A stretch of 64,000 nt of DNA from a virus, in the IMG/VR virus record IMGVR_UViG_3300026076_000113, positions 7,903 to 71,902 of that record. The stretch is one strand, 5' to 3'. Position 1 is the stretch's first letter. Every line of letters begins with the position of its first letter. Made by a program: the position numbers and the translations under genes. The notes beneath the pieces were generated by a model. It had not been told where the DNA came from and ran no database searches. It was given only the letters and a program-made list of their open reading frames with translations. Of this stretch, positions 4,232 through 52,252 are shown one piece after another.

Positions 4232-4239
4232 ATGACCTC

Positions 4240-23529: not shown

Positions 23530-26500
23530 TCAAACTGACCCTGCCCAGAAGACGTATCCTTTAGTTGTACGTGTACTATCAATGTATGTCTTAACAGCAC
23601 GTTGAGTAGGAACTTTTTGGTTTGAGTTAGCAGAAAGAGTAACGTCAGAAGAGAATTCTGTGATACTTTCTCCTAACTGAGCACCAATAGAACCCAGTCT
23701 CAAGGATGATAGACCCGAAAGGTCAAAGGAGGATGCGTTCAATGTAGTTGAACCAGTTGCCTGGTTGACCTTGAAGTAACGTCCAACTGTGAAGTTACCG
23801 TCTTGGTCTGTTGATACAAAGAATACACGTCCTGGGAAGTCTTCAGTAACTTCGTTGCCTGGTGCTGGATCCACTAATGGATCTCCAGGCCAGTTGGTGT
23901 TTAGTTTGTTTCCTGTACCTAAGTCTAGGAAGTCATGACCAGTTAGACGAACCTGACTGTAACCATATCTGATTTTATAGTCTTGTCCATCGAAGGTTCT
24001 TGTAGGTTTCTCAGCAGCAAGAACAACTAGTGCAGTACCAGTTGTATCTGTCTGTGCGTTTGTCACCTGCATGAACTCATTATCAATCTTGATGTAGTCG
24101 TTGATATTGAAACCAGAAGCATCAGTAATACGGACATCTGATTGAGAGTTATTAATATCTCTCAAAGTATCTGTCTGATCGACAACCTTGATTTCAAGAG
24201 CACGAACTGAATCGCCACTGGTATGAGCAGTAGCATTTGTGCCTTCAACTCCACGAGTAACATCCATAGATGTTGCTGTTGGGAATGAAGTAATTGCCAT
24301 CATCTCATCATTGATGATTAGATATGCTCCGATTGAGAATCCACTAATTGTGTTAACGTAGATTGTAGTATCAGCAGCACTGTTGACAGCAGAACTCAAG
24401 TTAGTTGCTCCACCATACTGATATCTGGTAATTAATTCCAAACCATCATGTGCAGCAGCAGCACTACCTAGTAGTCCTCTAGTTACAGTCAAGTTACCTC
24501 TTCCAGCAGGAGCTGTGTATGAAGAGTTAGCAATAACGAATGTGAATGGTTCTTCACCAAGTCCACCAGCACCTGTAACGAATTCCATTGAACCACCTGG
24601 AACAGGAGCAGATCCTCTACCAGTTATGGCAAGTACGAATCCATTCTGACCACCAAGTGCATCACTGTTGTTGAGTAGTTGTCCTTGAACTCCAGAAGTT
24701 TGTCCATCAATTACTTCATTCTGTACAAAACTTCCTTTGAAAGGTCTGAAGAGTATCTTAGATACACCAGCCTGTACAGAGATAATTTCTCCAACAGCAC
24801 CAGATGTCAATCCGATAACTCTCTCACCATTCAACCAAATTCCATCGGTTGCTCCAGGTACAATGGTTGACTCATCATATTGAAGAGATAGACCATCGAT
24901 CTTACCATCAAGAGTTGTTTCTGTAGTGTCATAACCAGAAGAAACAATACCGTATGTACCCCAAGAACTGTTACCAGCAAGAGATCTGATTCTTCCACCT
25001 CTGGTTGAAGCATAAGAAACGTGACAGTAGTATGTGAAGCATGATACAATCTCAGCACCAGCTTTATTTGTACACCAGAAACCAACTCCACCGTCTTCGT
25101 GGATTTGTGTCCAAGAGTCAAACACCATTGTTTTGTTTGATCTGTTATCAAACGTAACGGCGTTAGAAGCAGCAGATACAAATGTGTGTGCGTACTGATC
25201 ACCAACAGCAGCAACACCTACGTTAACTGTAATTGTTGATGTAGAAGCAGCAACAATTATAAGTTCCTTACCGAAGGCAGGGTCAGATACACGTGGATAT
25301 GCATGGTTAGTAGCACCACCATCTTTAGTACAATTGAATGTAATAGATGCTTGTGATAATGTAATACTTGATCCAGTAGTCAATCCATGACCTGAACCAA
25401 GAGTAAGTTCCATGTCACCAGTAGAAGGATTATATGTAGCACCAGTTGGTGTAAACTGTGCTGTAGTATCCCACTTCTCATGAACATCACCATCAATAAC
25501 AGCACCAACTCCAGTTGCACCGAAGCAAGAACAGTTTGATACGTAAGGTGATCTCTTAATTGGTGAGTTAGGATCTAGACGTACATAAACACCACCGATT
25601 GTAGCAGTGTTAAGATCTTTAGGATCAGAACCTGAAGGAACGAAACCATTCATTCCATCCATAACCATGTCCTTAAGCATAGTGGTGCTTCCTAGCATCC
25701 ACATAGTTAAATGCTCGTTCATGATTGGAGTAACACCACTGATAGCGATATCTGTAGCACCAGCTTCATATGTGTCTGAAGTTGTCCAAAGGTTAGCATT
25801 AGCATCTCTAGTGACACTTCCTAATCCAGAAGTTAAACCAGTTGTTGCAACTGTAACCAATGTTTGAAGAGCAGCATCCTGTACAACGCAAGTTACGTTA
25901 GCACTAATGCTATTAATATCTGTAATAGTATTGTTAATAACCTGTGTCAATCCATGAGTACCAACAACAGTAACACTATCGTTATTGATAACGTCTTTTG
26001 CAATAGGAGTTAAGTATCCTAGAATAGAAACAACTTCTGCTTCGTTACCGTTCCAATAGTTAGCAGTAATCCAGTCATCAACTGTGTCATAAACACGGTC
26101 GTTACCACCATAACCTAAGTTAGCAGTGATATCCTGAATAAGAGTAGCAAGTTTGCTCTCAAATACAGAAGCATCTCCACCAGGAGGGTTAGTAATAGTA
26201 ACACCACCAGCAGCAGCTTGTGCAAGAGTTTCCTTAACAACGAACTGTGTGTTAGATGTTAATAGGTTGTATGCGTCAGCAGTTTTGTTGTTAGCAAATC
26301 CATCGGTCTGAACATAAATGTCAGAACCACCTTCTCTAACGTCAATAACTTCACCAGTCTTACTTCCATCACCAGATGTGATAGTAGAACCAAGAACTCT
26401 ATACTGAGAGTCAGGTACTTGTGCAAGTGTAAGTTTAACAACACTTGAAGGTTCACCAGCTCTTGCTTGAATCTTAGAAGTTCTTAGGTTATCACCAACG

Positions 26501-27624
26501 ATACCTACATTTGGTGGAACCCTCATTGGAAGGATTTCGTTATATGTACCTGCTTTAACATAGATTGTTGCAGGACCAGTTACGCTATCTACAGCGTGAC
26601 GTACAGTTCTCCATGCTGCTGTAATGCTATTACCAGCATTTGTATCAGCACCTTCTGGAGTAACATAATAAACTTTGTGTGTAACGTGACTCTCTTTCCA
26701 TGATGGATATCCTGTTGAGTCAACAGTTAAAACTTTATTCTCTGTACCAATAGGCAACCTAGCAGGACCAGAACCACCTTGATAAAGAACGTCACCAGAT
26801 GTGGTCAGAACGTTGGCAGACGCTCCTTCTGCTAGTGAATTCCAGTATGTACCATTAACGTCTGTCTCTGGTGCATTACCTGTGTTTTCAGTAACACAAA
26901 TATGTGAGTTACTATTTCTAGTAACAGCATCACCTGGATAATAAGTTGTACCTACATCCCAAGTACCTTTCCAAGTGAAACCTCCAACAATGAAGTCCCA
27001 ATCAGAAGCATTGCTTGATGGAGATTTGTTAATGTTAGTTGTCTTAGCAACGTATGAGTTACCACCTAAAAGAACAACATCACCTGGTTTATATGTTGTG
27101 GTAGAATTCCAATTACCTACAACCTTGAAACCTGTGGTTAAGATGTCCCATTGAACACCAATACCATTATTAGGTGCGATAGCAGTACTTGTTGTTTTTG
27201 CAACGTAAGTATAACCACCATATGTTACGATATCACCGACTTGATATTCAGTTGCTGAATCCCAAGTATCTTCAAACTTGAGTCCATCCAAGTAGGCAGA
27301 AAACTTAGCAGGATCGAAAGTTGAAGTCGATGTATGAGGTGTAGTAGTTCTATAAAGTACGTTACCGTATTTTGCGATATCGTTATTCTTATAGAAGGTA
27401 GCTGCAGCCCAGTCACCTGTATTGTAAATCCCTTCAGTATGAAGTGACCAACTTCCAGCGTCAGTTCCGTACCATTGTGCTGCTGACGAAACCGATGTGT
27501 GGTTTGCGGTAGCAACGTAAGTGTTAGCACCAAATTTAACAATGTCATCAATGACATAAGCGGTTGCAGCCGCCCAGTCACCTCTCCAGTTAAATTTTAG
27601 TCTGCCAAGTCTAAAATCTGCCAT
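23530..27624 (-). CDS. Tail fibre protein (1364 aa) with N-terminal carbohydrate-binding-like repeats
   Basis: About five W...T.Y..GD.V..GG..Y repeats (CBM5/12-like); YYVTPEG.D.N.G....AWRTV..A and IYVKAGTYNE (beta-helix entry); C-terminal VPTQRAVKTYID. Confidence 0.8.
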   Translation of the reverse strand: MADFRLGRLKFNWRGDWAAATAYVIDDIVKFGANTYVATANHTSVSSAAQWYGTDAGSWSLHTEGIYNTGDWAAATFYKNNDIAKYGNVLYRTTTPHTSTSTFDPAKFSAYLDGLKFEDTWDSATEYQVGDIVTYGGYTYVAKTTSTAIAPNNGIGVQWDILTTGFKVVGNWNSTTTYKPGDVVLLGGNSYVAKTTNINKSPSSNASDWDFIVGGFTWKGTWDVGTTYYPGDAVTRNSNSHICVTENTGNAPETDVNGTYWNSLAEGASANVLTTSGDVLYQGGSGPARLPIGTENKVLTVDSTGYPSWKESHVTHKVYYVTPEGADTNAGNSITAAWRTVRHAVDSVTGPATIYVKAGTYNEILPMRVPPNVGIVGDNLRTSKIQARAGEPSSVVKLTLAQVPDSQYRVLGSTITSGDGSKTGEVIDVREGGSDIYVQTDGFANNKTADAYNLLTSNTQFVVKETLAQAAAGGVTITNPPGGDASVFESKLATLIQDITANLGYGGNDRVYDTVDDWITANYWNGNEAEVVSILGYLTPIAKDVINNDSVTVVGTHGLTQVINNTITDINSISANVTCVVQDAALQTLVTVATTGLTSGLGSVTRDANANLWTTSDTYEAGATDIAISGVTPIMNEHLTMWMLGSTTMLKDMVMDGMNGFVPSGSDPKDLNTATIGGVYVRLDPNSPIKRSPYVSNCSCFGATGVGAVIDGDVHEKWDTTAQFTPTGATYNPSTGDMELTLGSGHGLTTGSSITLSQASITFNCTKDGGATNHAYPRVSDPAFGKELIIVAASTSTITVNVGVAAVGDQYAHTFVSAASNAVTFDNRSNKTMVFDSWTQIHEDGGVGFWCTNKAGAEIVSCFTYYCHVSYASTRGGRIRSLAGNSSWGTYGIVSSGYDTTETTLDGKIDGLSLQYDESTIVPGATDGIWLNGERVIGLTSGAVGEIISVQAGVSKILFRPFKGSFVQNEVIDGQTSGVQGQLLNNSDALGGQNGFVLAITGRGSAPVPGGSMEFVTGAGGLGEEPFTFVIANSSYTAPAGRGNLTVTRGLLGSAAAAHDGLELITRYQYGGATNLSSAVNSAADTTIYVNTISGFSIGAYLIINDEMMAITSFPTATSMDVTRGVEGTNATAHTSGDSVRALEIKVVDQTDTLRDINNSQSDVRITDASGFNINDYIKIDNEFMQVTNAQTDTTGTALVVLAAEKPTRTFDGQDYKIRYGYSQVRLTGHDFLDLGTGNKLNTNWPGDPLVDPAPGNEVTEDFPGRVFFVSTDQDGNFTVGRYFKVNQATGSTTLNASSFDLSGLSSLRLGSIGAQLGESITEFSSDVTLSANSNQKVPTQRAVKTYIDSTRTTKGYVFWAGSV

Positions 27625-27635
27625 TTGTTTTTCCT

Positions 27636-28040
27636 TTACTTAGGTCCCTCGGTTGTATAATCGTATGTTTCATTGAAACGGACCACGAAATATCCGTTAT
27701 CATCTACAAAGTAGGTTACTTTTCTACTGTCAAATCTGTATTGTTGATATTGATCCTGTGGATGATTCGTTCGTGACTTTTCTTCTGTAGTTTCTTCTAC
27801 ATAGTCAGTCATTCCTGTTGCAATATCTAGGTATGGAGTACCATCTTTACGATGGAAAGTCACTACATCATCATCAATACTCCTGATTTTGGTATAATGG
27901 AGCATACCATCATCATCTCTGCGTAATGCATGGATAGTAAAATCGTTTCCAAGATCGTAGTTGTTACTAGCAAATCCTGTAGAACCGCCTCCACCACTGG
28001 AACCGCCTCCTCTAAAACTATCGCTGATGTACATCGTCAT
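27636..28040 (-). CDS. Hypothetical virion-associated protein (about 134 aa)
   Basis: ORF track gives 27636..28073; the ATG at 28040 forms an ATGA overlap with the upstream stop, so it is the likelier start. Confidence 0.7.
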   Translation of the reverse strand: MTMYISDSFRGGGSSGGGGSTGFASNNYDLGNDFTIHALRRDDDGMLHYTKIRSIDDDVVTFHRKDGTPYLDIATGMTDYVEETTEEKSRTNHPQDQYQQYRFDSRKVTYFVDDNGYFVVRFNETYDYTTEGPK

Positions 28041-28498
28041 GTGACAATTACCCTCCAGTAAACTCCTTCCCAAATAAGTTGAACACCTGCGCCTTTAACG
28101 TCAAAAACTAGAGGAGATGAAATTACTCCAAATGTATTTTGAAATTGTCGTCCGATAGGGTCCGTCAGAGTAACATTATTTATATCCCAACTAAACTTTA
28201 CATCAATGAACTCAATTACATCCCCAGATTTGGGAACCAATTGGTTGTTGTAAAGAGGAAGTGTTAACGATACTGGACCATTAGATGAGTCCACCAAATA
28301 ACGAAGGCTTGTTCCTAGAGTTTGATTTGAATTAATATATTCCCATCGTGCTCTGAATACATCAAATCCACCAGTAGTGGTTCCGTCATGAATGACGGCC
28401 ATATTTTTGTCAGTATCAATCGTCAGTTCACCCTGTGCTCCAGTAAATAGAGCATGTTCAGCTGTAGTACCTCTTCTGAATTGAACCTGTGTTGTCAT
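28037..28498 (-). CDS. Short fibre-related protein with Mtd/hyaluronidase-type N-terminal domain (153 aa)
   Basis: QVQFRRGTTAEH..FTGA.GE.TIDTDK....IHDG.T.GG, followed by the same LTLP...GD.IEF.D domain seen in 22784..23107. Confidence 0.8.
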   Translation of the reverse strand: MTTQVQFRRGTTAEHALFTGAQGELTIDTDKNMAVIHDGTTTGGFDVFRARWEYINSNQTLGTSLRYLVDSSNGPVSLTLPLYNNQLVPKSGDVIEFIDVKFSWDINNVTLTDPIGRQFQNTFGVISSPLVFDVKGAGVQLIWEGVYWRVIVT

Positions 28499-28532
28499 CA
28501 GTAGTTATTTGATTCCAAGTATATTTATGAGA

Positions 28533-28540
28533 TATTTATA
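28533..28540 (-). promoter_or_regulatory. T4-type late promoter TATAAATA (second variant CATAAATA at 28522-28529)
   Basis: Exact match immediately after the 28541 stop. Confidence 0.8.
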
Positions 28541-31500
28541 TTAGATGATCCATCCATAAGACCTTGGTGGTGCAACTTGTATACGTCTTGTCTCAGCATC
28601 ACCAACATGTAGAATAATTCCACCTTCAGATACAAATCTCTGATAAGGTGCAATAACCTTGGTTGTAATATCAATCTCAATTGGGCAGTGTCCGTCGTAA
28701 CTGAAGGTACGGAGGACTTCTGCACTTGCAAGTGAAGGTATGCGACCTGAACCAACAAATGCCTTGACGATAATAGGAACATTGTCCTCTTCGAAGACAT
28801 CGATCCTTCCTGAACCGTCTGCAACTGTTGTAATACTGGAAGTAGATTCTCCAGAGAATTGTGCGGAACCTTCTCCAACATATCCTTTCCTTGTGAAGGA
28901 TTCTGCACCTGATCCTCTGACCTCGACAGTGACATCTGTAACAATGTTTCTGGCAACTGCCTGTCTTGCAACACCCAAGAAGTCGAAGATTGCAACATTC
29001 TCGACTGCAATTGCTCTGGATTCGGATGCATTGTTCCATGTGAAGAATGATCCAGTTCCAACTGTGACTCTTGCTCTTGGAGTATCGGCAACACCAAATA
29101 CATGTACAACTCCATAGAGTTCTGGAGAGAATGTAACTGTCTCTGCTGCACCAGAGAAGTTGTATAGATTTCCAAACCCTGCGTATGCTTCTGTATGTTT
29201 CTCGTCTGCAATACCAGTAATACCGATATCGATTTGAGAAGTCCAGTGGAATGTACGACGTTCAACGCTGGTGACAAAGTTGAATAGATTTCCGAATCCA
29301 GATTCTGCGTATGTTGTTGCTTCCTCTGCACGACCCCTGAATGTAAAGAGTCCTGCTGCTTCTGGAGCGACTCCAACACTTTCCGAAGCACCAGAGAATG
29401 CAAAGAGTGTACCAAATAGAACTTCTCTTGTAGTAACTCTCTCTGTCTTTGTACCACCAAAGGAGAATAGAGCAGTAGTCTCGTCTGGATTGACAGTGAA
29501 ACTCTCTGAAGCACCACTGATGTTGAAGATCCTTCCTTCTCCAACAAAGTCTCTTGTACGAGTAACGTCTGTTGTAACATCGACGTAGATAGTACCAGAA
29601 CCAATATTGTTTGGTGTGAATCTCTCGAATGCTGCTCCAGTAATATCGAGTGGTACTGGTACTTCGTCTGGACTCCATACAACATTTTCTGTTGTCCTTG
29701 TACCACCAATAGAGAATAGTAACTGTCTCTCTTCTGGATTGAAGGTAACACTTTCGGATGCACCACTGATGTTGAAGATTCTTCCTTCTCCAACAAAGAT
29801 TTTTGTGCGAGAGAATGTAGAAGTAACATCGATAGTTGTACTTCCAGAACCCAACCAGTTTGGTATGTACTTGATACGTGCTGTACCACGTAGTTTGGAC
29901 TCGATGGTGAATCTTTCGCTGAAGGTTTGTTTGAATGAACCAAACCCTTTGAACACCATGTCTGCCTGGAATTCTGGCAAGACAAATGTGACACTCTCTG
30001 CTGCACCACTGATAGCAAATATACGACCTTCGCCAACCCATACATGGGATCTGGAAGATGTAGAAGCACCATAGATATCGACTTCGATTCTTGGTTGCTC
30101 TGCAAATGTGAGAATTGGTTCTGAAACTTCTCCACTGAAGAGAATTTCTGCTTGACCAATCTCTCTGAATGTTGCAGAAACACCTGCTTTCTCTGGACTG
30201 AATGCAATGTCTGCTTGGAACGCAGGTAACTTGAGGGTGATAGCCTCGTCTGCTGCACCAATAGAGAACAGTCCACCAACACCAAAGTGAATATCGACGT
30301 TGACGACATCTGCAATACCACTGACGTAGATGTCTCCGAGTGGTTGCTCTGCAAATGTAAGTAATGGATCTGCAATCTGTCCAAAGACTGTGAATACACC
30401 AGATCCAATATTGCCACCAAAGGTGAAGCTCTGAGATACAGCACCCTTGAGAACTGCGTCTGCTGTAAACTCTGGAAGTTTGAGAGTGATAGACTCTGCT
30501 GCTCCACCAACAGAGAAGACCTGACCCTCTCCTTGATAAGCACGAGTTCTGAGAAGACCAGCATCTCCAGTAACATCGACTGGAACGAATGGTTGCTCTG
30601 CGAATGTAAGTATCTCTGGACTTGATGTTCCACGTACTTCTGTGTGAACCAGACCAGCAATAGCGATTGCACGACTCTCGTCGAGACGACCTGTAAAGTC
30701 GAATAGTGCTCCAAGTTCGAGTGGGTTGAATGTAACCGCTTCGACTGCACCACTGAAGTTGAAGATCCGACCTTCGCCAGTCCAATGCTTCGTGATAAGT
30801 GGTACAACAGAAACGTTGAATATCTCTGTATGAGATTGACCAACCCAGTCTTCTGTATGTTTCTCCAGTGCAGTACCAGAGAGATCGATATCGACTGTAA
30901 ACTGTTCTGAAGCAGTAAACTTCTGACCTGCAAGTCCACCAAATGTGAGGTCTGCTTGGAATGCAGGAAGGTCGATTGTAATCGCTTCTGCACTCTGACC
31001 AATAGTGAATAGGTTTCCAGATCCATGGAAGTGGAGACTGAAACTCTCTGATGCAGTACCAGTAACGTCTGTAACGACGAATCTGTAGTTGTCTGATACA
31101 ACTGCCTCTTGACAAGTACCAAACAGTTCGAAGTGTAGAGAACCTTCTTCTGCTGTGATGAACTTGAGACCTGTGTAACCACCAGCAAACTTGAATAGTG
31201 GTGGTGTTGTTGGAGGAATAACAACAGTACATTCTGCTGCACCACTCCAAGTCCACAATGTAGGTTCGTTGGTAACCCACTGAGGTGGTACACGAACTTC
31301 TGAATCGGAACGAATCTTGATCGCATGATCCCATTCGGTAGCATCCGATATAAAGATCTTGGTCTGAGAATCGTGTGTGAGAGAAGTAAAGCTGACAAGT
31401 TTTCCAAATGGGTATTCGGAAACTTTTGTACGAATAGGACTGATGACAGATGTGAATCCGTAGTCCTCTCTTACCGTTGCACCAGGATCTGTGATGAATC

Positions 31501-33994
31501 CACAATCGTGGATTGTTGTTGCTCCACCTGAGAGCCAAGGATCGATATCGTATGTCTGACCAAGAGGTATTGTTGCAACAACACCATTGAGACCAATCCT
31601 GATAATAGAAGTTGGTGATGTACCAGAGATATTCTGACTTGGTGTGATCTCGGTAATAGTACCGACACCAGGTAGACTTGCATAATCTCTGTACTGATAT
31701 AGATTCTCGGAAGAATCGTTGTAAGAGTAAGTTCTGGACTTCTCTGTACTGATGATAGTAGGTAGTACACCAGTACCTTCGTAAGCAAAGGATCTAAGTA
31801 CAGGTTCTGCTGTTCCATCAGATGCCCATAGAGTACCAAAGGCATTCCAGTTAGGTGCAAATCTAACGTCTGCAACACCTCTAATTGGGAATAGAGCCTG
31901 TTTCTCGTCTGGGTTGAAGGATACAGATTCAACTGCACCACCAATCTTGTAGATCTGACCTTGACCAACGTAGTCAAATACACGAGAAGCTTCAGCATAT
32001 ACAATACTGAAGGCACGACCTTCACCGATGTATGGTCTGGTAACACTGTATGTTGCCTCACCAGTAACATCAATTGGAATATATCCATTCCACTGTGGGT
32101 TGATACGTACCCAAGTATCGGAACGAATCTTGATCGCTGCCTTGAATGTAATCTCTGCAACGAATCCAACAGTACGTGATGTATGTGTATTGCTGGTATA
32201 CTGGAAGCCACCAAAAGGATACTGCCATACTGTCTGAGAAATATATCCCCAATCAATATTTCCAGAGTAACCTTCAGCAATGATTCCATAATCAAAGCTG
32301 GTGGTTGGTGTGAAGTTAGAAGTGAGAGATACAGTGTATTCTGGATCTACAACAGCAACAACACCAACGTTGATTCTTACAACTGATCCTGTAGATGAAC
32401 CTGAGAGTATTGCATTTGTAGAGATTTCCTCGACAGTAGCAGTACCAGGTAATGGACCAAAGTCTGTATAACCAAATGGTACGATAGAAGTATCGTTGTA
32501 GTCCCAAGTGACTCTCTCAGCATATGCATCTCCAGTAAAGACTGGGATAACACCAAATGGTTGCTCACCATATGTTCTCTTAACGTCAGAGACTGCACCT
32601 GTGACAGGTATAGTACCTTCACCTCTCCAGTTAGGTACGAAGTTAACCTTAACGTTAGATTGAAGTGGAGCAAGTCTTCCAGTAGCAAGGTAATCTGTAG
32701 TGACTCTCTCTTCACCACCACCAATTTTGTATAGGTTACCAGTACCCTCATAAGAGAATACAAATGCCTCGTCTGCTCTGGAGAAGTTGAACAGTACACC
32801 TGATCCAATTTCACTAGCAGTAATTCTCTCTGCGAGAACACCACGAACCATACTCCTGACGAATCCATTCCATCTAGGTTTGGTTCTTCCTCTACCTTTA
32901 CCAAATACCTTAATGTCACCAGAACCAATCCAGTTAGGTACGTAGTTCTGTTTAGCAGTACCCTTAAGTTGACCGAGACCAAATGGATATAGAGTACCAG
33001 TGATACTAAGAAGACCCCAGTCAAGATTGGTTGTCTTACCAATAGATACTGGAGCGTGTTCAATCGCAGTGGTATATGTACCAGAATGCGGTGCAACTTG
33101 GAATCCACTAGGATCTACAGTTGCAGTTATTGTAGGATTAACTTGTACTACAGAACCAGTACTTACACCTGACAGTACTTGGTTTGTAGTGATAACTTGA
33201 TAGGACTGTATCGGAATCGTTCCGTAGTCCTCGTATTCGAATGGAACAACAGCAGAGTTATTATATGAGTATGCTCTTCTGTTATCTTCGCTATTAATAT
33301 TAGGTAGAGTACCTGAACCCTCAAATCCAAATGAGCGTTTAACGTGCTGGACTTCTCCAGAAACCTGGGCTGTACCTGATCCCACCCAGTTAGGTCTGAA
33401 GGAAACCCCTGCGCTGCTTTTGAATCTGAATAGTCCTTTGGACTCTATTGCAATACTTCTAGTAACTGTACCAGAACCGATCTTGTACAGTTCACCGTCA
33501 CCAGATTCTTTCTTGGCGAAAGCTTCCGTTGTGAGGGACTGGATCCCAAATAGTCCGAAGACTTCGATATCTGGAACCCAGTGTGTAACCGCACTACCTG
33601 ATACTCGTACCGTACCTTGAACGATCCAAGGAGCTGATAGACGATAGTAACTACCGACCATCTCAAAGACAGTACCTGTACCAACCCATGCATGTAGAAC
33701 TGTCCAAGTTGTAGCAGTCTTCGGTCTAACAAAACCGTAAGGTCGGACAGTATCTGTGTAAATTATTCTACCCCAATCATCAACCGTAACAGCTTCTACG
33801 TCGTTGATAGATCCACCGTCTACGATGGTTGTGGGTGTTAATGCTAATGAATTTAAACCGTAGTCGAGTTGTATAAACTCCTCAACACATGAAGGATTCC
33901 ATGAATATGAAAGTCTCTCGCCACTAAAAATACGCAACGCAAAACTAGACCCATAAGGTCCGTCTATACCAGTTGTATAGATGTGCGTTGCCAT
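28541..33994 (-). CDS. Large repetitive virion structural protein (1817 aa)
   Basis: GGAGG RBS; many G(E/S)G.(I/L)F...G..ES.(T/S)F repeats and TFAEQP repeats; position among structural genes. Confidence 0.8.
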   Translation of the reverse strand: MATHIYTTGIDGPYGSSFALRIFSGERLSYSWNPSCVEEFIQLDYGLNSLALTPTTIVDGGSINDVEAVTVDDWGRIIYTDTVRPYGFVRPKTATTWTVLHAWVGTGTVFEMVGSYYRLSAPWIVQGTVRVSGSAVTHWVPDIEVFGLFGIQSLTTEAFAKKESGDGELYKIGSGTVTRSIAIESKGLFRFKSSAGVSFRPNWVGSGTAQVSGEVQHVKRSFGFEGSGTLPNINSEDNRRAYSYNNSAVVPFEYEDYGTIPIQSYQVITTNQVLSGVSTGSVVQVNPTITATVDPSGFQVAPHSGTYTTAIEHAPVSIGKTTNLDWGLLSITGTLYPFGLGQLKGTAKQNYVPNWIGSGDIKVFGKGRGRTKPRWNGFVRSMVRGVLAERITASEIGSGVLFNFSRADEAFVFSYEGTGNLYKIGGGEERVTTDYLATGRLAPLQSNVKVNFVPNWRGEGTIPVTGAVSDVKRTYGEQPFGVIPVFTGDAYAERVTWDYNDTSIVPFGYTDFGPLPGTATVEEISTNAILSGSSTGSVVRINVGVVAVVDPEYTVSLTSNFTPTTSFDYGIIAEGYSGNIDWGYISQTVWQYPFGGFQYTSNTHTSRTVGFVAEITFKAAIKIRSDTWVRINPQWNGYIPIDVTGEATYSVTRPYIGEGRAFSIVYAEASRVFDYVGQGQIYKIGGAVESVSFNPDEKQALFPIRGVADVRFAPNWNAFGTLWASDGTAEPVLRSFAYEGTGVLPTIISTEKSRTYSYNDSSENLYQYRDYASLPGVGTITEITPSQNISGTSPTSIIRIGLNGVVATIPLGQTYDIDPWLSGGATTIHDCGFITDPGATVREDYGFTSVISPIRTKVSEYPFGKLVSFTSLTHDSQTKIFISDATEWDHAIKIRSDSEVRVPPQWVTNEPTLWTWSGAAECTVVIPPTTPPLFKFAGGYTGLKFITAEEGSLHFELFGTCQEAVVSDNYRFVVTDVTGTASESFSLHFHGSGNLFTIGQSAEAITIDLPAFQADLTFGGLAGQKFTASEQFTVDIDLSGTALEKHTEDWVGQSHTEIFNVSVVPLITKHWTGEGRIFNFSGAVEAVTFNPLELGALFDFTGRLDESRAIAIAGLVHTEVRGTSSPEILTFAEQPFVPVDVTGDAGLLRTRAYQGEGQVFSVGGAAESITLKLPEFTADAVLKGAVSQSFTFGGNIGSGVFTVFGQIADPLLTFAEQPLGDIYVSGIADVVNVDIHFGVGGLFSIGAADEAITLKLPAFQADIAFSPEKAGVSATFREIGQAEILFSGEVSEPILTFAEQPRIEVDIYGASTSSRSHVWVGEGRIFAISGAAESVTFVLPEFQADMVFKGFGSFKQTFSERFTIESKLRGTARIKYIPNWLGSGSTTIDVTSTFSRTKIFVGEGRIFNISGASESVTFNPEERQLLFSIGGTRTTENVVWSPDEVPVPLDITGAAFERFTPNNIGSGTIYVDVTTDVTRTRDFVGEGRIFNISGASESFTVNPDETTALFSFGGTKTERVTTREVLFGTLFAFSGASESVGVAPEAAGLFTFRGRAEEATTYAESGFGNLFNFVTSVERRTFHWTSQIDIGITGIADEKHTEAYAGFGNLYNFSGAAETVTFSPELYGVVHVFGVADTPRARVTVGTGSFFTWNNASESRAIAVENVAIFDFLGVARQAVARNIVTDVTVEVRGSGAESFTRKGYVGEGSAQFSGESTSSITTVADGSGRIDVFEEDNVPIIVKAFVGSGRIPSLASAEVLRTFSYDGHCPIEIDITTKVIAPYQRFVSEGGIILHVGDAETRRIQVAPPRSYGWII
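28680..31793 (-). other. Segment nearly free of stop triplets in all three sense frames
   Basis: The ORF track shows 1817-, 960- and 758-aa ORFs overlapping in three frames. A manual scan of the flanks finds TCA/TTA/CTA on the plus strand only at 29262 and 31471 between 28680 and 31793. Confidence 0.9.
29511..30780 (-). repeat. Imperfect direct repeats encoding GEGRIF..SGA, period about 81-83 codons
   Basis: gcaccactgatgttgaagat(c/t)cttccttctccaacaaag at 29511 and 29760 (249 nt apart); diverged copies near 30003 and 30747. Confidence 0.8.
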
Positions 33995-34011
33995 TTACCC
34001 TCCACTAAAAT

Positions 34012-34040
34012 AAAAAGGGGATCCAGTACTGAATCCCCTC
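34012..34040 (-). terminator. Rho-independent terminator
   Basis: Minus strand GAGGGGATTCA-GTAC-TGGATCCCC-TTTTTATTTT after the 34070 stop. Confidence 0.8.
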
Positions 34041-34069
34041 AAACATAATAATGAAATCAATTGAATCAA

Positions 34070-35458
34070 TCAGTCTAGGCTGACGTTCAGAGTTACTTTG
34101 ATCTGGTCACCAGCGTTTTGAATAGCGTAAGGACCATTTGTGAACCTTTCAGCGAAGAATATCGCATCATAGAGTGTCACAGAACCTGTACCATCAAGTG
34201 CTTTAGTAGTCGTGAAGGTGTTTGCATCAGGTGTCTCAAATACAATGTAAGTACCAGCAGTAGTTGTGGTATTACCTGTTCCCTGATCGATATAAACTGC
34301 GTCGCCTGGTTCTAGACCATGACCTGTAGCAGTTACTTTACTGAAGTCAAACTTAACAACGTCATTACCGTTAGAAGTTTGAATGTTCTCAATAAGAACG
34401 TTATTAAGGAATACAGTTACTGTTCCGTCTGTATCGTCAGTCTCGTAGTCGATACCAGTAATAACTGTGTTAGCATCAATACCGTTAGGTGTAGTTGTCT
34501 GAGAAACTCTCATTCCAAGAGCAAGATCCTCAGCAACGTTTGCTTGGAATACCAAGTCGCCACTAACAGCACCACCGTTTGCCTTACTTAGATAAACTGT
34601 AGTACCAACGATTCCAGTAACACGTGCTCCCTGAGCAACGTTAGTTCCTGTAACACGCTGATTAACAACAATTCCAGTTGTAGATGTAACAACAACTTCG
34701 AACTCACCAGCAGTACCAGTAGAAGCAGTAGTTGCAGCAACAGCAGCAAGAGTGATATAGTTGTTTCCGATAGTACCACGAACTCCAGACTTAGAAATCT
34801 GTGTTCCAGTAGCAGCAGTACCAGCATCAGCTACACCATGAATGGTTGTAGGCATGTTGTTAGCACGTGAGAGGAAATAACCGTATACGTTACCAGCAGG
34901 ACCGTCAAAGGTAAATGTTTGCTCTGGGTAAGAAGCAGTTGTACGACCTCTACCAAAACTCAATGGTTGTGCAGTGAAGTTACCAGTGTTCTTAACACTT
35001 AGGTTAAGTGTAGTACCATCAATGTCAACAACATATGCACCAGTGCCGACAGATCCACCAGTAACATAGTCACCTTTTTTAATACCTGTGTTAGAAGCAA
35101 CCGTAACTAGGTATGTTCCAGATGTACCATCACCATTAGTTGTTGTAACAGCAGTTGGTTCAGTCTCGATTCCCCAACGGTTACCGTTCAACAAGATACC
35201 ATATTGCTGTGCATAATCCTGATCAGTCCTATTATTGATGATGCCAGGATAACCTGTAGTAGGTGCTCCACCATAACCGTTAGTGTTATTTTCGGTGTAT
35301 GGTTCGAAATATCGTGTTTGAGAGGGAGTATCACTCTCAGCAGGATATGTATCTGTAGTGAACAACTTAAGAATAAGGTTCCTAGGGATATTCTGCGAAT
35401 AGTTTAGCAGATTCCTTAGAGAATCAATTTCGCCGTTGTCGGTGACTAAGAGTGCCAT
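34070..35458 (-). CDS. Virion structural protein (462 aa)
   Basis: MALLV.D.GE..L..L, ASYPEQTFTF...AGNVYGY and FAERFTNGPY.IQN.GDQIKVTLNVSL; tandem late promoters, GAGG RBS and a downstream terminator suggest high expression. Confidence 0.8.
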   Translation of the reverse strand: MALLVTDNGEIDSLRNLLNYSQNIPRNLILKLFTTDTYPAESDTPSQTRYFEPYTENNTNGYGGAPTTGYPGIINNRTDQDYAQQYGILLNGNRWGIETEPTAVTTTNGDGTSGTYLVTVASNTGIKKGDYVTGGSVGTGAYVVDIDGTTLNLSVKNTGNFTAQPLSFGRGRTTASYPEQTFTFDGPAGNVYGYFLSRANNMPTTIHGVADAGTAATGTQISKSGVRGTIGNNYITLAAVAATTASTGTAGEFEVVVTSTTGIVVNQRVTGTNVAQGARVTGIVGTTVYLSKANGGAVSGDLVFQANVAEDLALGMRVSQTTTPNGIDANTVITGIDYETDDTDGTVTVFLNNVLIENIQTSNGNDVVKFDFSKVTATGHGLEPGDAVYIDQGTGNTTTTAGTYIVFETPDANTFTTTKALDGTGSVTLYDAIFFAERFTNGPYAIQNAGDQIKVTLNVSLD

Positions 35459-42095: not shown

Positions 42096-42294
42096 TACTT
42101 TCTATCAATTGTTTTAGTAGGGTCTTGAGTTCACTAAGTTCACCTTTAACATAATCCAATTCATGCTCCATACTCCGTTGTTTGTTTCTGGATGCTTTGT
42201 ATTTGGCAAATGAAGACCTATCGGTATTTATTATTGCACCTGTATTTACATCACGATATAAATGATCTTGGTCTTTAACCTTCAAATGATTCAT
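42073..42294 (-). CDS. Small hypothetical protein (73 aa)
   Basis: KV.....LYRD..TGAIIN.D followed by a coiled coil; coupled to both neighbours. Confidence 0.75.
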   Translation of the reverse strand: MNHLKVKDQDHLYRDVNTGAIINTDRSSFAKYKASRNKQRSMEHELDYVKGELSELKTLLKQLIESNGTSHSK

Positions 42295-45200
42295 TAGTAT
42301 GAAGCAACTGCCCTCATGTCCTGAATCTTAGGAACGAATGCAGGGTTATTAGACTTCATCACAATCTTAACTGCATAAGAAGAAAACTCAGGTAGATTTT
42401 CTATGCTGTAAGATAGTTCCTGATATGAAGACTGTTTCTCTGTAATACCACTAATAGCATTTTCAGAAGAAGCAATAGTATCTACATCAGGTTCACCTGC
42501 TTCATTAAAGTATATCCATTCAATGTCTTCAAAGTTCTCCTGTGAAGAAGACTTCTTAATCTTATAAAGAATCATAAGATTCTTAGTATCAGTAACATTA
42601 GCAGTAAGTTTTACATCGATAGATGTAGCAGGATTCTCAATAGCAACCTCCTTAGTTACATACTTAGAAATTCCAGAACTATTCTTAGATTGAGTTTCTC
42701 TAATAAAGTCAACACCATCCTCATAAGAGACTTTTGCAATTTCAATGAAACTTGCTTCGTCAACTGGTTGATTAGGATATGATATTAAATCACCAACTCT
42801 AAAGATGTCATTTAACTGATCATCTACATTAGCATTTCTATCGAAACTACTACTATCAATAAGTCTTCCAGTATAATCATTATTAATTGGTTGCTTATCA
42901 TTAACAGTAGTTAATTCACCAGCCTTACTGTTCCACAATACTATCTTACCAGAAATCTTATTGTCATATGTCTGAGCAACAACTGATGGATTTCTTGCAG
43001 TCACATATGTTGGTGGTGATGTAGTATTTGGTATATCAAATGCAAATTTAACAAGACCATCTGTACCAACAGTAATAGTACCAGTAAATGATTGACCACT
43101 AAAGGTTACTGTTTCTCCAGCAACAAATGTGTTAACAGTATTAACTTTAACATATACAGTACTACCATCAACCTTAACAATAGTACCTTCTGCTTTAGAA
43201 GTAACACCAACAAGAGTTTGGTTATTATTAATTACTTCAGCACCTTGAAGACCAGATGCAGTGAATGAAAATACTGGTAAGAAAGTTACAACTTGATTCC
43301 TTCTACCATAACGATCTTCTGAACCTTTAGCAGCTTCAATACGGTTAGTAATAGTCTTAACAGATGCTCTTGAAAGATCAATAACTGGTGACAGATGTGT
43401 AACAGTACTTGAAAGATCTAACTTATATGTTAGTGAATTGTCAATACTATTAGCAGTTTCATTAATCTTAGAAGCAACAATCTTCTGATTGATGAAATAG
43501 AAGTCTTCATTCAAGAATGTCTTTTCATAATCTGTTTGTGAATATGAAACGAAAGTACCTACATTATCATCTATTGGTGAAACATTAGTTGTCTTAACAA
43601 AACTATCAATCTTAGTCTGACTAAAGGTTAGATTAGATATAGAAGCAAATAGTTTTTCAAACTTTCTGTTGTATGTTGCTAGTACATTTGTACCACCACC
43701 AAAGGAATTACCAGATGCTCTAGTAGATCCAGTGATGTTATAATAATCAACACCAGTGTTAGAAACCTTATAAAGATTGCTGTTTATTGATGAGGCAGTT
43801 ACACCACCAACATCTTCTGCATTCTTGAAGTAAACCCATGACTTATCAATATCAAAACCATTGTCTCTATGGTTAACTTTAACAACATAATTGTTATTCT
43901 TGAATAGTGTTGATGTAGCAGTAGTATTTGCTTCTGCATTAGTTTCAATAGGATGATGGTCAAGTGCTTCAAATCCTAGATCATCATTAGCAAGTAGTAG
44001 ACTTGCAGTTCTACTAATATCAAACTCTGCACGGTTCAATACAAACTTAACATCTTCAAATAGATCCTCAGTCCAATCACCTGTATTCTGTGATCTGAAT
44101 AGTGAACCTAAAGCAGGTTGTGTTGTAACAATTTGACTTGTAGCAACTTCAACTCCACCTAACTTAGAAGACCATAATTCATAGTCAACTGAATCTGTCT
44201 CGATAGCAAGAGCATACTCAGTATCATTCTCAAGATATACAGGGAAGTCAAATCCAAACTTAGTAGGAGTTATAGATTGTGTTTCTCCTGTCTCATCAAT
44301 AGCAATACCCATTCTAACTGCTGGAGTATCAATAGTAATTTCAGATTCAATCTGAGCACCAGCATTACCAGAACCTGTTCCTCTAAGAACAATAGATGGT
44401 GGTTCAGTATAACCAGAACCAGCAAGTGTCATTTCTGCATCATATACAAGACCTTGAGAAACTCTAACTGTAGCAGTAGCATTACCACCACCAGGAAGTT
44501 GAGGACTTTCAATTGTAATGATTGCAGATTCGTAACCACTACCTGTATTAGCAACATTCAATCCAGTTACACGACCAGAATCTTTAGCAATAGTCAATGT
44601 GAACTGTGTATTATTAGCATTATTAGCTTGTGTAATAGATGTAACGTTTAATAGTTCATCTTGTACAAAGTTCTTACCGTTGTTGTTATCCAAGACAACT
44701 GTATACACCTGATCATTCGTAAGTGTGAATAAACCTGTTGTACTAGCAACAATCTCAATATTATTCTTATCAATCACTTTACTGACAGGACCAGAAGCAT
44801 TTGATTTGGATCCAGTTACCTTCTCACCTTTAGTAATCGTAAGTGTATCACTTGAGACTACTTTTAAGAATGTCTCAGGTGTCAATACTTTCTGAGTACC
44901 AGGAATAATGTTCTTACCTGGTTTTCCACTGACAACATCAGTTAGATAAACTCTCAATGGAATGTTATCACTCTTCTTATTAAAGAATAGATCTAGACTT
45001 GTTACAAATACACCACCATCATATCCATCAACCTTAAATGTCTGAGCGAATGGATTTGGTCTAATAGGATTCTCTGTGTTACTACCTACAATCTGTGTAC
45101 CTTCATTTGCTTTAAAGAATGCAGGTCTTGTGGATATAATAGAAGATGGATTCTCTGGTACTATACCAGTAGCATAGAATTTCACTTCAGCGAATGTTTC

Positions 45201-52234: not shown

Positions 52235-52252
52235 TATTTATATTTATTTATA
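52235..52252 (-). promoter_or_regulatory. Two tandem T4-type late promoters TATAAATA (52235-52242, 52245-52252)
   Basis: Exact matches upstream of gp8. Confidence 0.8.

What the first reader, a model, noticed from the sequence alone, without database searches (positions are those of the whole stretch)
28680..31793. About 3.1 kb of a structural gene purged of stop triplets in all three sense frames: candidate new recoding or frame-independent translation system
Seen: on the coding (minus) strand only two TAA/TAG/TGA triplets occur in any frame between 28680 and 31793, at 29262 and 31471. The +1 frame is open 28528-31470 (about 980 codons) and the -1 frame 29265-31793 (about 840 codons). All three frames are open together over 29265-31470. 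The effect is strand-specific, because the plus strand is full of TGA/TAA/TAG, and it is exact, because TCA, TTA and CTA remain on the coding strand. The 5' part of the same gene has about 11 such triplets in the 300 nt from 31794, so on the order of 100 would be expected here (rough extrapolation). Synonymous choices show avoidance: GEGR is GGT-GAA (making TGA) near 32020 outside the zone, but GGA-GAA or GGC-GAA near 29540, 29790, 30030 and 30775 inside it, although GGT is common elsewhere. Inference: ribosomes cross this mRNA out of frame and must not meet release factors. Possible reasons are programmed frameshifts giving alternative C-termini, long-range hopping or sliding between repeats (T4 gene 60 bypassing is a much shorter precedent), true overprinted proteins, rolling translation of a circularised RNA, or evasion of a host factor that recognises stop triplets regardless of frame. 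I know of no described case like this.
Basis: partly seen in the sequence, partly recalled or inferred. Interest (0 to 1): 0.95.

Follow-up and report, generated by a model that had tools for sequence, protein, structure and literature searches.

The report
Off-frame stops purged from fibre gene
Natural selection has removed nearly every stop triplet from the two unused reading frames across the last 3 kb of a giant tail-region gene of a marine cyanophage, and no known mechanism explains this.

Summary
On the coding (minus) strand of the 1817-aa gene (28541-33994), gene nt 2199-5316 hold 2 off-frame stop triplets. Synonymous-codon shuffles give about 103 (minimum 84 in 2000). The other 13 large ORFs in the window are normal.

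The trait is selected, not compositional. T-ending codons precede AA/AG/GA-starting codons in 1 of 204 cases inside the zone and in 64 of 157 cases in the 5' part. Orthologues change neighbouring codons together so that no stop appears. The void is kept in 13 full orthologues and in S-CAM1, S-CAM3 and S-SSM7 homologues (about 25-30% identity). Across the wider family it ranges from complete to absent.

The +1 and -1 frames are not genes. dS is 0.19 in the zone against 0.225 in the 5' part, and that gap matches the share of synonymous changes that would create stops. I found no slippery heptamer, Rfam match or RNA joint.

The most likely cause is selection against termination by out-of-frame ribosomes. 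The harm avoided (truncated stubs, mRNA decay) is inferred only. Family-bearing phages also carry a tmRNA.

This scan found the same feature before in related genomes (e1-5875135, e1-5875146, e1-5362478, e1-5362470, e1-5994377). My literature searches found no published description.

The parts
28541..33994 (-). Gene for a 1817-aa repeat protein of the tail/fibre module (phrog_11522, function unknown). ATG at 33994 follows a GGAGGG Shine-Dalgarno-like site.
28680..31793 (-). Stop-depleted zone as reported: 2 off-frame stop triplets against about 103 expected.
29265..31470 (-). Core block in which all three sense frames are open. No off-frame stop occurs in any of 14 aligned sequences between gene nt 2580 and 4717.
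28680..29261 (-). Second block with all three frames open (585-nt gap in the window, 552-585 nt in orthologues).
31471..31473 (-). TAA in the +1 frame (gene nt 2521), the only +1 stop between gene nt 1645 and the gene's end. Present in 14 of 14 sequences.
29229..29273 (-). Island where -1 frame stops are tolerated (gene nt 4721-4763). The window has TGA at 29262-29264, which is present in 14 of 14 sequences. Others sit at 4721 (10 of 14), 4745 (8), 4724 (2) and 4763 (2).
28528..31470 (-). +1 frame open for 981 codons. It runs past the main stop and ends at TAA 28525-28527. It evolves as if not coding for a protein.
28593..28679 (-). Last about 140 nt of the gene, where five -1 frame TGA triplets are tolerated.
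31794..33994 (-). 5' part of the gene. -1 frame stops are normal (64 against 67.3) and +1 frame stops are reduced (14 against 27.7). It contains a GEGR-type repeat unit (aa 657) with normal stop density.
28533..28540 (-). TATAAATA directly after the main stop TAA (28541-28543), ahead of the next gene. That this is the T4-type late promoter consensus is recalled, not tested.
28037..28498 (-). Downstream 153-aa tail protein with an Mtd_N domain (phrog_9648). It marks the conserved gene order used to find distant family members.
34015..34040 (-). Terminator-like hairpin plus T-run just upstream of the gene's start.

Best explanation
Shown: ongoing purifying selection on synonymous sites and codon junctions keeps the +1 and -1 sense frames of the gene's last 3 kb free of TAA, TAG and TGA. 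The two frames do not encode conserved proteins. The only constraint on them is 'no stop'.

Inferred: the agent is the ribosome. A ribosome that has left frame 0, by a spontaneous slip or a wrong-frame internal start, cannot terminate inside the zone.

Favoured purpose (inferred, not shown): premature release would yield cleanly truncated N-terminal stubs of a modular tail-fibre-like protein. Such stubs could still fold and occupy assembly sites. A product with a nonsense tail hundreds of residues long is more likely to be excluded or degraded. A ribosome that runs to a broken mRNA end would be tagged by the phage's own tmRNA.

Because selection on one stop grows with the length of open frame upstream of it, the purge would spread in blocks. 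That fits the block-and-island pattern and the graded state across the family.
For: Selection is real and exact.
- 2 off-frame stops against 103 +/- 7 expected.
- Only the three stop triplets, plus TTT, are strongly depleted among 64 off-frame triplets.
- T-ending codons precede AA/AG/GA in 1 of 204 cases in the zone. They precede other codons there in 314 of 706 cases, and precede AA/AG/GA in the 5' part in 64 of 157 cases.
- Of 72 single-base states seen in orthologues that would create a stop in the window's context, 62 come with a neighbouring change that avoids it, such as GGA-GAT against GGT-CAA. The 10 real stops all lie at the zone's edge or in the island.

Conservation.
- The 13 full and 1 of the 2 partial IMG/VR orthologues reach the zone and keep it; the other partial one stops short of it.
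- S-CAM1, S-CAM3, S-SSM7 and Sf-FS3 syntenic genes are depleted. P-SSM2 gp298 and two tail-fibre genes, used as controls, are normal.

The alternative frames are not genes.
- dS is 0.190 in the zone and 0.225 in the 5' part, a ratio of 0.85. Stop-creating changes make up 359 of 2279 possible synonymous changes (15.8%).
- A stop-free constrained null shows no selection on the hydrophobicity of the alt-frame products.

The benefit is graded, not all-or-none. Family members range from a 2061-nt void to normal density.

Slip-prone runs are rarer in the zone than elsewhere. Homopolymers of 4 or more number 6 against 37.7 expected (ratio 0.16), while the pooled ratio for the other genes is about 0.48.

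A tmRNA gene was found by ARAGORN in 6 of 6 family-bearing records examined that way: S-CAM1, S-CAM3, S-SSM7, G001, G004 and G005.
Against: - Nothing shows that out-of-frame ribosomes are frequent here, or that a junk-tailed product is less harmful than a stub. Both lack the true C-terminus.
- -1 stops are tolerated in an island 720 nt before the end (14 of 14 sequences) and in the last 140 nt. S-CAM3 has a 210-nt island with 7 stops between two clean blocks. One relative (L041) has 25 -1 stops against 43 expected in the last quarter of the gene, 16 of them in bins near its 3' end.
- Four other giant structural genes in the window (1686-2869 aa) are not purged.
- A repeat unit of the same type at aa 657 lies outside the zone with normal stop density.
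- Homopolymer depletion is genome-wide. It is only stronger in the zone.
- The tmRNA co-occurrence may simply reflect shared ancestry. Sf-FS3 gave a BLAST match to the tmRNA but no Rfam match.
- The protein's fold and its copy number in the virion are unknown. The AF2 model had pLDDT 26.8.
Confidence: 0.35

Rival explanations
1. mRNA-fate version. Termination of out-of-frame ribosomes inside this long message triggers cleavage or decay, for example through an exposed stretch attacked by RNase E, or through collisions behind a terminating ribosome. Removing hidden stops would then stabilise the mRNA.
For: A 2026 preprint (10.64898/2026.01.14.699446; abstract read) reports that in fungi and human cells hidden stops end out-of-frame translation and promote mRNA decay, and that deleting them by synonymous changes stabilises the mRNA. 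This version gives a graded, incremental benefit, which fits the family-wide gradient. A phage tmRNA would rescue ribosomes on cleaved messages.
Against: The eukaryotic route runs through NMD, which bacteria lack. In-frame ribosomes still cover the message. Other genes of 5-8.6 kb in the same window are not purged. The internal islands with normal stop density argue against a need to reach the 3' end. The downstream gene has its own TATAAATA, so it need not depend on this message.
Confidence: 0.2
2. Frame-promiscuous or programmed translation. A useful fraction of ribosomes reads the zone in +1 or -1, giving the N-terminal part alternative long tails, or the translation itself is the function, as proposed for ambigrammatic narnaviruses.
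For: The +1 frame is open to just past the main stop in the window, S-CAM1 and S-CAM3. The +1 TAA at gene nt 2521 and the -1 TGA at gene nt 4730 are fixed in 14 of 14 sequences, like ORF borders. Kept stop-free without amino-acid constraint is also how the narnavirus reverse frame is described (PMC8155312, PMC8316113; titles and starts of abstracts only).
Against: There is no X XXY YYZ heptamer in or near the zone; the only one in the gene is at nt 137. Slip-prone runs are depleted, not kept. Alt-frame sequences evolve neutrally. The -1 product would be a W/C/R/Y-rich sequence unlike a folded protein. Partial purges in relatives would be useless for an all-or-none ORF.
Confidence: 0.12
3. Tolerance of DNA-level frameshifts (evolvability). 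Open frames would let indel or out-of-register recombinant alleles of a fast-evolving fibre gene stay full-length until a second event restores the frame.
For: The gene evolves fast (dN/dS 0.38 in the zone, 0.29 in the 5' part) and is built of repeats.
Against: All 18 full-length relatives are intact in frame 0: 13 and 5, some of which are probably the same contigs. Frame 0 shows no similarity to the alternative frames, within the gene or against S-CAM1. This would be second-order selection on about 100 sites.
Confidence: 0.08
4. Frame-blind recognition. A nuclease or other factor, or a DNA signal, sees the triplets themselves. TATAAATA and TATAAT contain TAA and TTGACA contains TGA, so avoidance could suppress internal promoters.
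For: Each triplet removed would give an incremental benefit, which fits the gradient. Sigma-70-like sites are few in the region (3 against 12.3 in shuffles), although that follows automatically from the missing triplets.
Against: The depleted set is exactly the three stop codons, while TAC, TAT, TGG, TGC and TGT are enriched. No known factor has that specificity (recalled, not tested). Other genes are not affected. Promoter avoidance does not explain the absence of TAG.
Confidence: 0.07
5. True overprinted protein genes in the +1 and/or -1 frame.
For: ORFs of 960 and 758 aa exist and are conserved as ORFs.
Against: Every frame-0 synonymous change alters both other frames (reasoned from codon positions), yet dS falls by only 15%, the amount explained by stop avoidance alone. 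Alt-frame similarity to S-CAM1 is E about 1e-10 for both frames, against 1e-113 for frame 0. The amino-acid compositions are odd.
Confidence: 0.03
6. Chance, base composition, repeat inheritance or an assembly artefact.
For: None beyond the repeat structure of the protein.
Against: The minimum of 2000 shuffles is 84, against 2 observed. GC is only 43-49%. The repeats are diverged, and a unit of the same type outside the zone has normal stops. The trait is seen in cultured-phage genomes and in independent metagenomes.
Confidence: 0.01

Closest known systems
Ambigrammatic narnaviruses (stop-free reverse ORF across the RdRp gene; PMC8316113, PMC8155312; titles and starts of abstracts seen)
   Same: A multi-kilobase reading frame is kept free of stops by codon choice in the real gene. 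By polymorphism analysis it does not encode a functional protein, so 'no stop' is the constraint. Translation of the frame, rather than its product, is reported to matter.
   Different: There it is one frame on the opposite strand of a small RNA virus. Here it is both alternative frames on the same strand of one gene in a ~200-kb DNA phage (judged from its complete 202.5-kb relative), in blocks with islands. The trait is graded across a gene family, and there is no evidence yet that the frames are translated.
Ambush / hidden-stop hypothesis (PMC2996987, PMC3700767, PMC5909447: search listing only; bioRxiv 10.1101/2025.10.02.679949: passages)
   Same: Both concern selection on out-of-frame stop codons as a response to ribosomal frameshift errors.
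   Different: The sign is opposite. The hypothesis expects off-frame stops to be kept or enriched so that frameshift products stay short. Here they are removed almost completely, in one gene only. The two largest other genes in the window show a slight -1 excess (z +3.4 and +3.8).
Hidden stop codons as triggers of mRNA decay in eukaryotes (bioRxiv 10.64898/2026.01.14.699446; abstract read)
   Same: Synonymous removal of hidden stops changes the fate of a message, because out-of-frame ribosomes no longer terminate early. This gives a possible reason to purge them.
   Different: It was shown in Neurospora and human cells and acts through NMD/UPF1, which bacteria and phages lack. No natural gene with a complete purge is described in that abstract.
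Programmed -1 frameshifting in phage tail genes (lambda G/GT type; Xu, Hendrix and Duda 2004, seen only as a reference)
   Same: It is a phage tail-module gene in which a second frame stays open beyond the point where ribosomes could shift.
   Different: The G/GT type has a conserved slippery heptamer and a conserved trans-frame protein of about 100-200 aa. Here there is no heptamer, no amino-acid conservation, two frames are involved, and about 1000 codons stay open.
Overlapping (overprinted) genes of viruses
   Same: There are long conserved ORFs in alternative frames of a known gene.
   Different: Overprinted genes depress the synonymous rate of the host frame. Here dS is nearly normal, and the small shortfall is explained by stop avoidance alone.

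Membership tests
phrog_11522 (phage protein family of unknown function) and its wider family | Significant full-length match to the family profile | tested here: met
   E = 0, 1123 bits, 4 stretches. 193 cluster representatives at E <= 0.001 in the 1.84-billion-protein library. No Pfam family and no PDB relative by sequence.
Overprinted (overlapping) protein-coding genes | Long alternative-frame ORF conserved among relatives | tested here: met
   The +1 ORF is about 980 codons and the -1 ORF about 840. Both are kept in 14 of 14 close sequences and, with different borders, in S-CAM1 and S-CAM3.
Overprinted (overlapping) protein-coding genes | Purifying selection on the alternative-frame protein, seen as a depressed synonymous rate in the known frame | tested here: not met
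   dS is 0.190 in the zone and 0.225 in the 5' part. The 15% shortfall equals the share of stop-creating synonymous changes, 359 of 2279.
Overprinted (overlapping) protein-coding genes | Alternative-frame protein similarity among distant relatives beyond what frame 0 imposes | tested here: not met
   +1 against +1 gives E 1.3e-10 and -1 against -1 gives 3e-10. Both are alike, and far weaker than frame 0 at 3.6e-113.
Programmed -1 ribosomal frameshift site | Conserved slippery heptamer X XXY YYZ at the entry to the open frame | tested here: not met
   The only heptamer in the gene is at nt 137 (8 of 14 sequences). There is none in or near the zone, and 0 in the zone against 1.6 in shuffles.
Programmed -1 ribosomal frameshift site | Downstream stimulatory RNA structure | tested here: inconclusive
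   No Rfam match at E <= 0.1. Local folding is stronger than in shuffles, but no more so than in other genes. No covariation analysis was aimed at a particular site.
Ambigrammatic-type non-coding open frame | Frame kept stop-free by codon choice, without amino-acid constraint | tested here: met
Ambigrammatic-type non-coding open frame | Open frame lies on the reverse complement of an RNA virus polymerase gene | tested here: not met
   The open frames are on the same strand. The opposite strand has normal stop density. This is a DNA myovirus-like contig.
Ambigrammatic-type non-coding open frame | Translation of the open frame is required | not testable with these tools
   Only assembled contigs of RNA runs were available. 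No ribosome profiling or proteomics was available.
Ambush-type selection (off-frame stops kept or enriched) | Off-frame stop count at or above the codon-shuffle expectation | tested here: not met
   2 against 103 in the zone. The other 13 ORFs in the window are within z -3.2 to +3.8.
Translational bypassing (T4 gene 60 type) | Take-off codon followed by a stop, a matching landing codon and a non-coding gap | tested here: not met
   Frame 0 is continuous and conserved over all 1817 codons in the 14 aligned full-length sequences. The zone has no in-frame stop. The defining features are recalled from knowledge of gene 60.

The most novel reading that the evidence does not exclude
This gene family shows a new kind of constraint on a coding sequence. 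A multi-kilobase stretch is kept open in all three sense frames because ribosomes really do travel it out of frame at a meaningful rate during infection. Their termination there is harmful, and the phage's own tmRNA belongs to the same quality-control strategy. In the boldest form, the virion protein is made as a mixture with frame-shifted tails.
Probability: 0.15. Interest if true: 0.95.

Novelty: categorically new. Interest (0 to 1): 0.82.

Why it matters
Textbook expectation, and the ambush literature, hold that hidden stops are neutral or useful because they cut frameshift errors short. Here one gene family in abundant marine viruses has done the reverse, with single-site precision. The state has been kept across several phage genera, at the cost of about 16% of the gene's possible synonymous changes.

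The two frames carry no protein information, so the signal isolates a pure 'do not terminate here' constraint. That gives a natural handle on open questions:
- how often ribosomes are out of frame in vivo
- what a premature release costs
- whether phage tmRNAs serve product quality control

Practically, such zones will mislead gene callers on short contigs, because all frames are open. They also show that synonymous sites in phage structural genes can be under strong selection that has nothing to do with codon usage.

Cultured members (S-CAM1, S-CAM3, S-SSM7) make the question directly testable.

Tried and rejected
- Composition or codon usage as the cause. Rejected by two shuffle nulls and by the exactness of the depleted set.
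- A window-wide effect. Rejected, because the 13 other ORFs are normal.
- Repeat inheritance. A GEGR-type unit outside the zone has normal stop density. BLAST of the protein against itself listed no internal pairs at E <= 0.001, so the repeats are diverged.
- Cross-frame homology, meaning frame 0 matching +1 or -1 within the gene or against S-CAM1. None was found.
- Selection on the properties of the alt-frame products. A Monte Carlo sample of stop-free synonymous sequences shows no significant avoidance of hydrophobic stretches (0 against 7.3 +/- 6). Only off-frame TTT stays strongly depleted under that null.
- mRNA structure. The zone folds more stably than shuffles (z -5.2 and -3.0), but so do the 5' part and five other genes (z -1.4 to -6.6), so this is not specific to the zone.
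- Hypervariability as the reason for the -1 island. Amino-acid diversity there is ordinary (0.10).
- Anti-polarity, or coupling to the next gene. This is weakened by the TATAAATA right after the stop and by the internal islands.
- An internal late promoter at the zone's start. No TATAAATA-like site lies there.
- Known RNA families. None at E <= 0.1.
- RNA runs. Contigs of 3 RNA runs, each from a different study, cover parts of both halves of the gene. They show no joint shared by RNA runs, and only paired +1/-1 indels a few bases apart, which are also seen in the 5' part. These are contigs from relatives at 90-95% identity, so they show neither transcription level nor rare forms.
- Structure. 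AF2 on the last 420 aa with a 15-row alignment gave pLDDT 26.8, so no fold search was made. The protein atlas gave only scores of 0.81 or below, which is chance level. The PDB profile search gave nothing.
- The tmRNA link. It is present in all family-bearing records that could be examined and absent in P-SSM2, but I could not separate it from shared ancestry.
- Not done. I did not search the large protein database with the alt-frame translations, because wrong-frame gene calls on short contigs would make hits ambiguous. No supplementary files were opened.
Full report
WHAT IS THERE

The finding lies in one gene on the minus strand, 28541-33994. It encodes an 1817-aa protein that matches phrog_11522, a family of unknown function, at E = 0. 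It matches no Pfam family and no solved structure by sequence.

It sits in a tail/fibre module. Downstream are a 153-aa Mtd_N-domain tail protein (28037-28498), a small ORF and a 1364-aa tail fibre protein. The same gene order is found in Synechococcus phages S-CAM1, S-CAM3, S-SSM7 and Sf-FS3. The window is part of a 71.9-kb viral contig.

The protein is built of repeats. GEG(R/Q)-type units sit 81-83 aa apart at aa 1073, 1155, 1321, 1402 and 1485, with further units at aa 657 and 1707.

CHECK OF THE OBSERVATION

Counting every TAA, TAG and TGA on the coding strand gives 87 in the gene. Of these, 79 lie in the first 2199 nt and two in the next 3117 nt: TAA in the +1 frame at gene nt 2521 (window 31471-31473) and TGA in the -1 frame at gene nt 4730 (window 29262-29264). 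The longest stop-free gap on the minus strand is 2209 nt here, against 183 nt or less elsewhere. The plus strand is normal.

Shuffling synonymous codons within the zone gives 23.7 +/- 2.8 (+1) and 79.1 +/- 6.1 (-1) stops. The lowest total in 2000 shuffles was 84. Using the 5' part's codon usage raises the expectation to 135. The reverse complements TTA, CTA and TCA and the neighbours TAC, TAT and TGG are common. Among all 64 off-frame triplets, only TGA, TAG, TAA and TTT are strongly depleted. The enriched ones are one-base neighbours of the stops: TGG, AGA, CGA, TAC, TAT, CAG, TTG and TGC. The 13 other ORFs tested in the window have off-frame stop counts within z -3.2 to +3.8 of their own shuffles.

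IT IS SELECTION, AND IT IS GOING ON NOW

Inside the core zone, a codon ending in T precedes a codon starting AA, AG or GA in 1 of 204 cases, but precedes other codons in 314 of 706 cases. In the 5' part the figures are 64 of 157 and 238 of 575.

I aligned the window with 13 full-length IMG/VR orthologues (85-91% protein identity). There are 72 places in the zone where an orthologue carries a base that would create an off-frame stop in the window's context. In 62 of them a neighbouring base differs too, so that no stop exists. Examples are GGA-GAT against GGT-CAA, GCT-GGT against GCA-GAT, GGT-ATT against GGA-GAT, and TTT-GGT against TTC-AAG. The 10 real stops all lie at the upstream edge (gene nt 2213-2576) or in one small island.

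Between gene nt 2580 and 4717, and between 4766 and 5311, none of the 14 sequences has any off-frame stop. Five full-length metagenome loci show the same.

THE OTHER TWO FRAMES ARE NOT GENES

Every frame-0 synonymous change alters the +1 and -1 codons, so real overlapping genes would depress dS. Mean pairwise dS is 0.190 in the zone and 0.225 in the 5' part, a ratio of 0.85. dN/dS is 0.38 and 0.29. Stop-creating changes make up 359 of the 2279 possible synonymous changes in the zone (15.8%), which accounts for the whole shortfall.

Against S-CAM1, frame 0 aligns at E 3.6e-113. The +1 and -1 translations align only at about 1e-10, both alike, as expected from residual nucleotide similarity. The +1 translation is rich in L, S, Q and V. 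The -1 translation is rich in W, C, R and Y. A Monte Carlo sample of synonymous sequences constrained to be stop-free shows no significant selection on the hydrophobicity of these products.

HOW FAR THE TRAIT REACHES

- S-CAM1 gp232 (29% identity) has +1 open from nt 3175 to past its stop. Its -1 frame is open 3119-4859-6332, with one stop at 4859.
- S-CAM3 gp164 has clean blocks at nt 4901-6104 and 6313-7616, separated by a 210-nt island with seven stops.
- S-SSM7 gp110 has +1 open over about 3.6 kb and a 1197-nt clean block.
- Sf-FS3 gp93 is only partly depleted.

In all four, both halves of the gene are below their shuffle expectation, and the 3' half more so. P-SSM2 gp298, which occupies the same position, and two tail-fibre genes are normal.

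The family is large: 193 cluster representatives at E <= 0.001. Fifteen further IMG/VR relatives range from a 2061-nt void (L040, L041), through partial depletion confined to the 3' quarter, to normal density (L057, L058; L049 for -1). The +1 frame is purged more widely than the -1 frame. An alignment of ten C-terminal regions puts islands of -1 stops at roughly similar places in most members. Alignments of repeat proteins are uncertain, so this is only a rough guide. In one relative (L041) the last quarter of the gene has 25 -1 stops against 43 expected, 16 of them in bins near its 3' end. The void is therefore a matter of blocks, not simply 'everything up to the 3' end'.

TESTS OF PARTICULAR MECHANISMS

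- Programmed -1 frameshifting. The gene's only X XXY YYZ heptamer is at nt 137.
- Slip-prone runs. Homopolymers of 4 or more number 6 against 37.7 expected in the zone, and T-runs 0 against 23.8. The depletion is genome-wide (pooled ratio about 0.48) and merely stronger here (0.16).
- Known RNA elements. None.
- mRNA folding. More stable than in shuffles, but equally so in other genes.
- Splicing, circularisation, editing. Contigs of three RNA runs from three studies cover parts of both halves of the gene and show no shared joints. The only indels are paired +1/-1 indels a few bases apart, which occur in the 5' part as well. These are assembled contigs of relatives, so the test is weak.
- Coupling to the next gene. 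The main stop is followed at once by TATAAATA (28533-28540), which I recall as the T4-type late promoter consensus. The next gene therefore probably has its own promoter.
- Internal promoter at the zone's start. None seen.

THE tmRNA LEAD

ARAGORN finds a tmRNA gene in S-CAM1, S-CAM3, S-SSM7, the complete 202-kb relative of this window's phage (G001), and two other family-bearing contigs (G004, G005). That is 6 of 6 records examined this way. The window and its contig have none, but the contig is 36% complete.

P-SSM2, which lacks the family, gave no match. Sf-FS3 gave a BLAST match but no Rfam match. In the 50,697-record phage collection, the tmRNA sequence and the full-length Mtd_N tail protein hit the same six phages. 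The co-occurrence is real, but it may be shared ancestry, and I could not test it with independent contrasts.

WHAT IT MOST LIKELY IS

Shown: a strong, exact, conserved and ongoing selection against stop codons in both unused sense frames, with no protein-level constraint on those frames.

Inferred: The graded state across the family argues for a benefit that grows stop by stop, which fits error mitigation better than an all-or-none hidden ORF.

I favour, at about 0.35, the reading that premature release of out-of-frame ribosomes would produce truncated stubs of a modular fibre-like protein that can still assemble, whereas a long nonsense tail or a tmRNA tag removes them. Earlier follow-ups of this scan proposed the same, so this agreement is not independent evidence. 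The weak points are stated in the Against line. A junk-tailed product is also defective, the islands and the last 140 nt tolerate -1 stops, and other giant structural genes are untouched.

The main rival (0.2) is an effect on the fate of the mRNA, for which a eukaryotic precedent now exists. Functional out-of-frame translation (0.12), indel tolerance (0.08), a frame-blind factor (0.07) and overprinted genes (0.03) follow. About 0.15 is left for something not yet thought of.

COMPARISON WITH WHAT IS KNOWN, AND NOVELTY

The nearest analogue is the stop-free reverse frame of ambigrammatic narnaviruses (listing only). The nearest theory is the ambush hypothesis, whose prediction is reversed here.

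Full-text searches found no description of such a gene. The term sets were:
- off-frame stop + cyanophage
- all three reading frames + stop codons + tail fiber + frameshift
- out-of-frame stop codons + bacteriophage
- open in all three + stop codons + phage
- off-frame stop codons + depletion + overlapping

The library does not hold most subscription journals.

The scan itself has met the same gene family in other genomes. Those follow-ups also confirmed the observation and named no known mechanism. I rate it categorically new as a phenomenon, with the mechanism open.

Noticed in passing
L019:1460-1805 (record G001, the complete 202.5-kb relative); also L017, L021, L069, L070, L071: These cyanomyoviruses carry their own tmRNA gene next to tRNA genes. 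The tag peptides share AANNIVAFSR and end in VAA, VAV or VTA. The genes score below the Rfam tmRNA cut-off (23-35 bits against 47), and in several GenBank records the spot is annotated as 'hypothetical protein' or not at all.
   Followed up: partly
window, all 13 ORFs tested (e.g. 42294-50402, 4240-9300): Homopolymer runs of 4 or more, T-runs above all, are depleted relative to synonymous shuffles in 12 of the 13 genes tested (z -2.3 to -9.4; 9322-10452 is not, z -0.5). This looks like a genome-wide avoidance of slippery runs.
   Followed up: partly
window 42294-50402 and 52248-60857 (minus strand): The two largest genes have slightly more -1 frame stops than their shuffles (z +3.4 and +3.8) and fewer +1 stops (z -3.2 and -2.6). 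This is the ambush-like direction for -1, opposite to the finding.
   Followed up: no
window 28533-28543: The stop codon of the giant gene abuts a TATAAATA word (TAA-TATAAATA), 35 nt ahead of the next gene's ATG. It is probably a late promoter placed exactly at the gene border.
   Followed up: no
window 33995-34080: A strong terminator-like hairpin (11 pairs plus a T-run) ends 20 nt before the gene's ATG, and no TATAAATA lies between or just upstream. How the giant gene is transcribed is unclear (read-through, or another promoter type).
   Followed up: no
gene nt 2523-2535 (window about 31459-31471): Right after the conserved +1 TAA lies AGAGAGGA. In 10 of 14 orthologues (not the window) an ATG in the +1 frame follows 3 nt later. 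It encodes the recurring E-D-Y-G motif, so this is probably coincidence.
   Followed up: partly
L024:7366-11955 (S-SSM7 gp110), L025:7439-11956 (Sf-FS3 gp93): The syntenic genes of S-SSM7 and Sf-FS3 are barely similar in sequence to this protein (E about 1e-5) yet share the trait. The +1 frame is almost stop-free over 3.6-4 kb, and the -1 frame is clean only in blocks.
   Followed up: partly
window 23530-27624: The neighbouring tail fibre protein carries three CBM_5_12 carbohydrate-binding modules near its N-terminus (Pfam E 4e-17).
   Followed up: no
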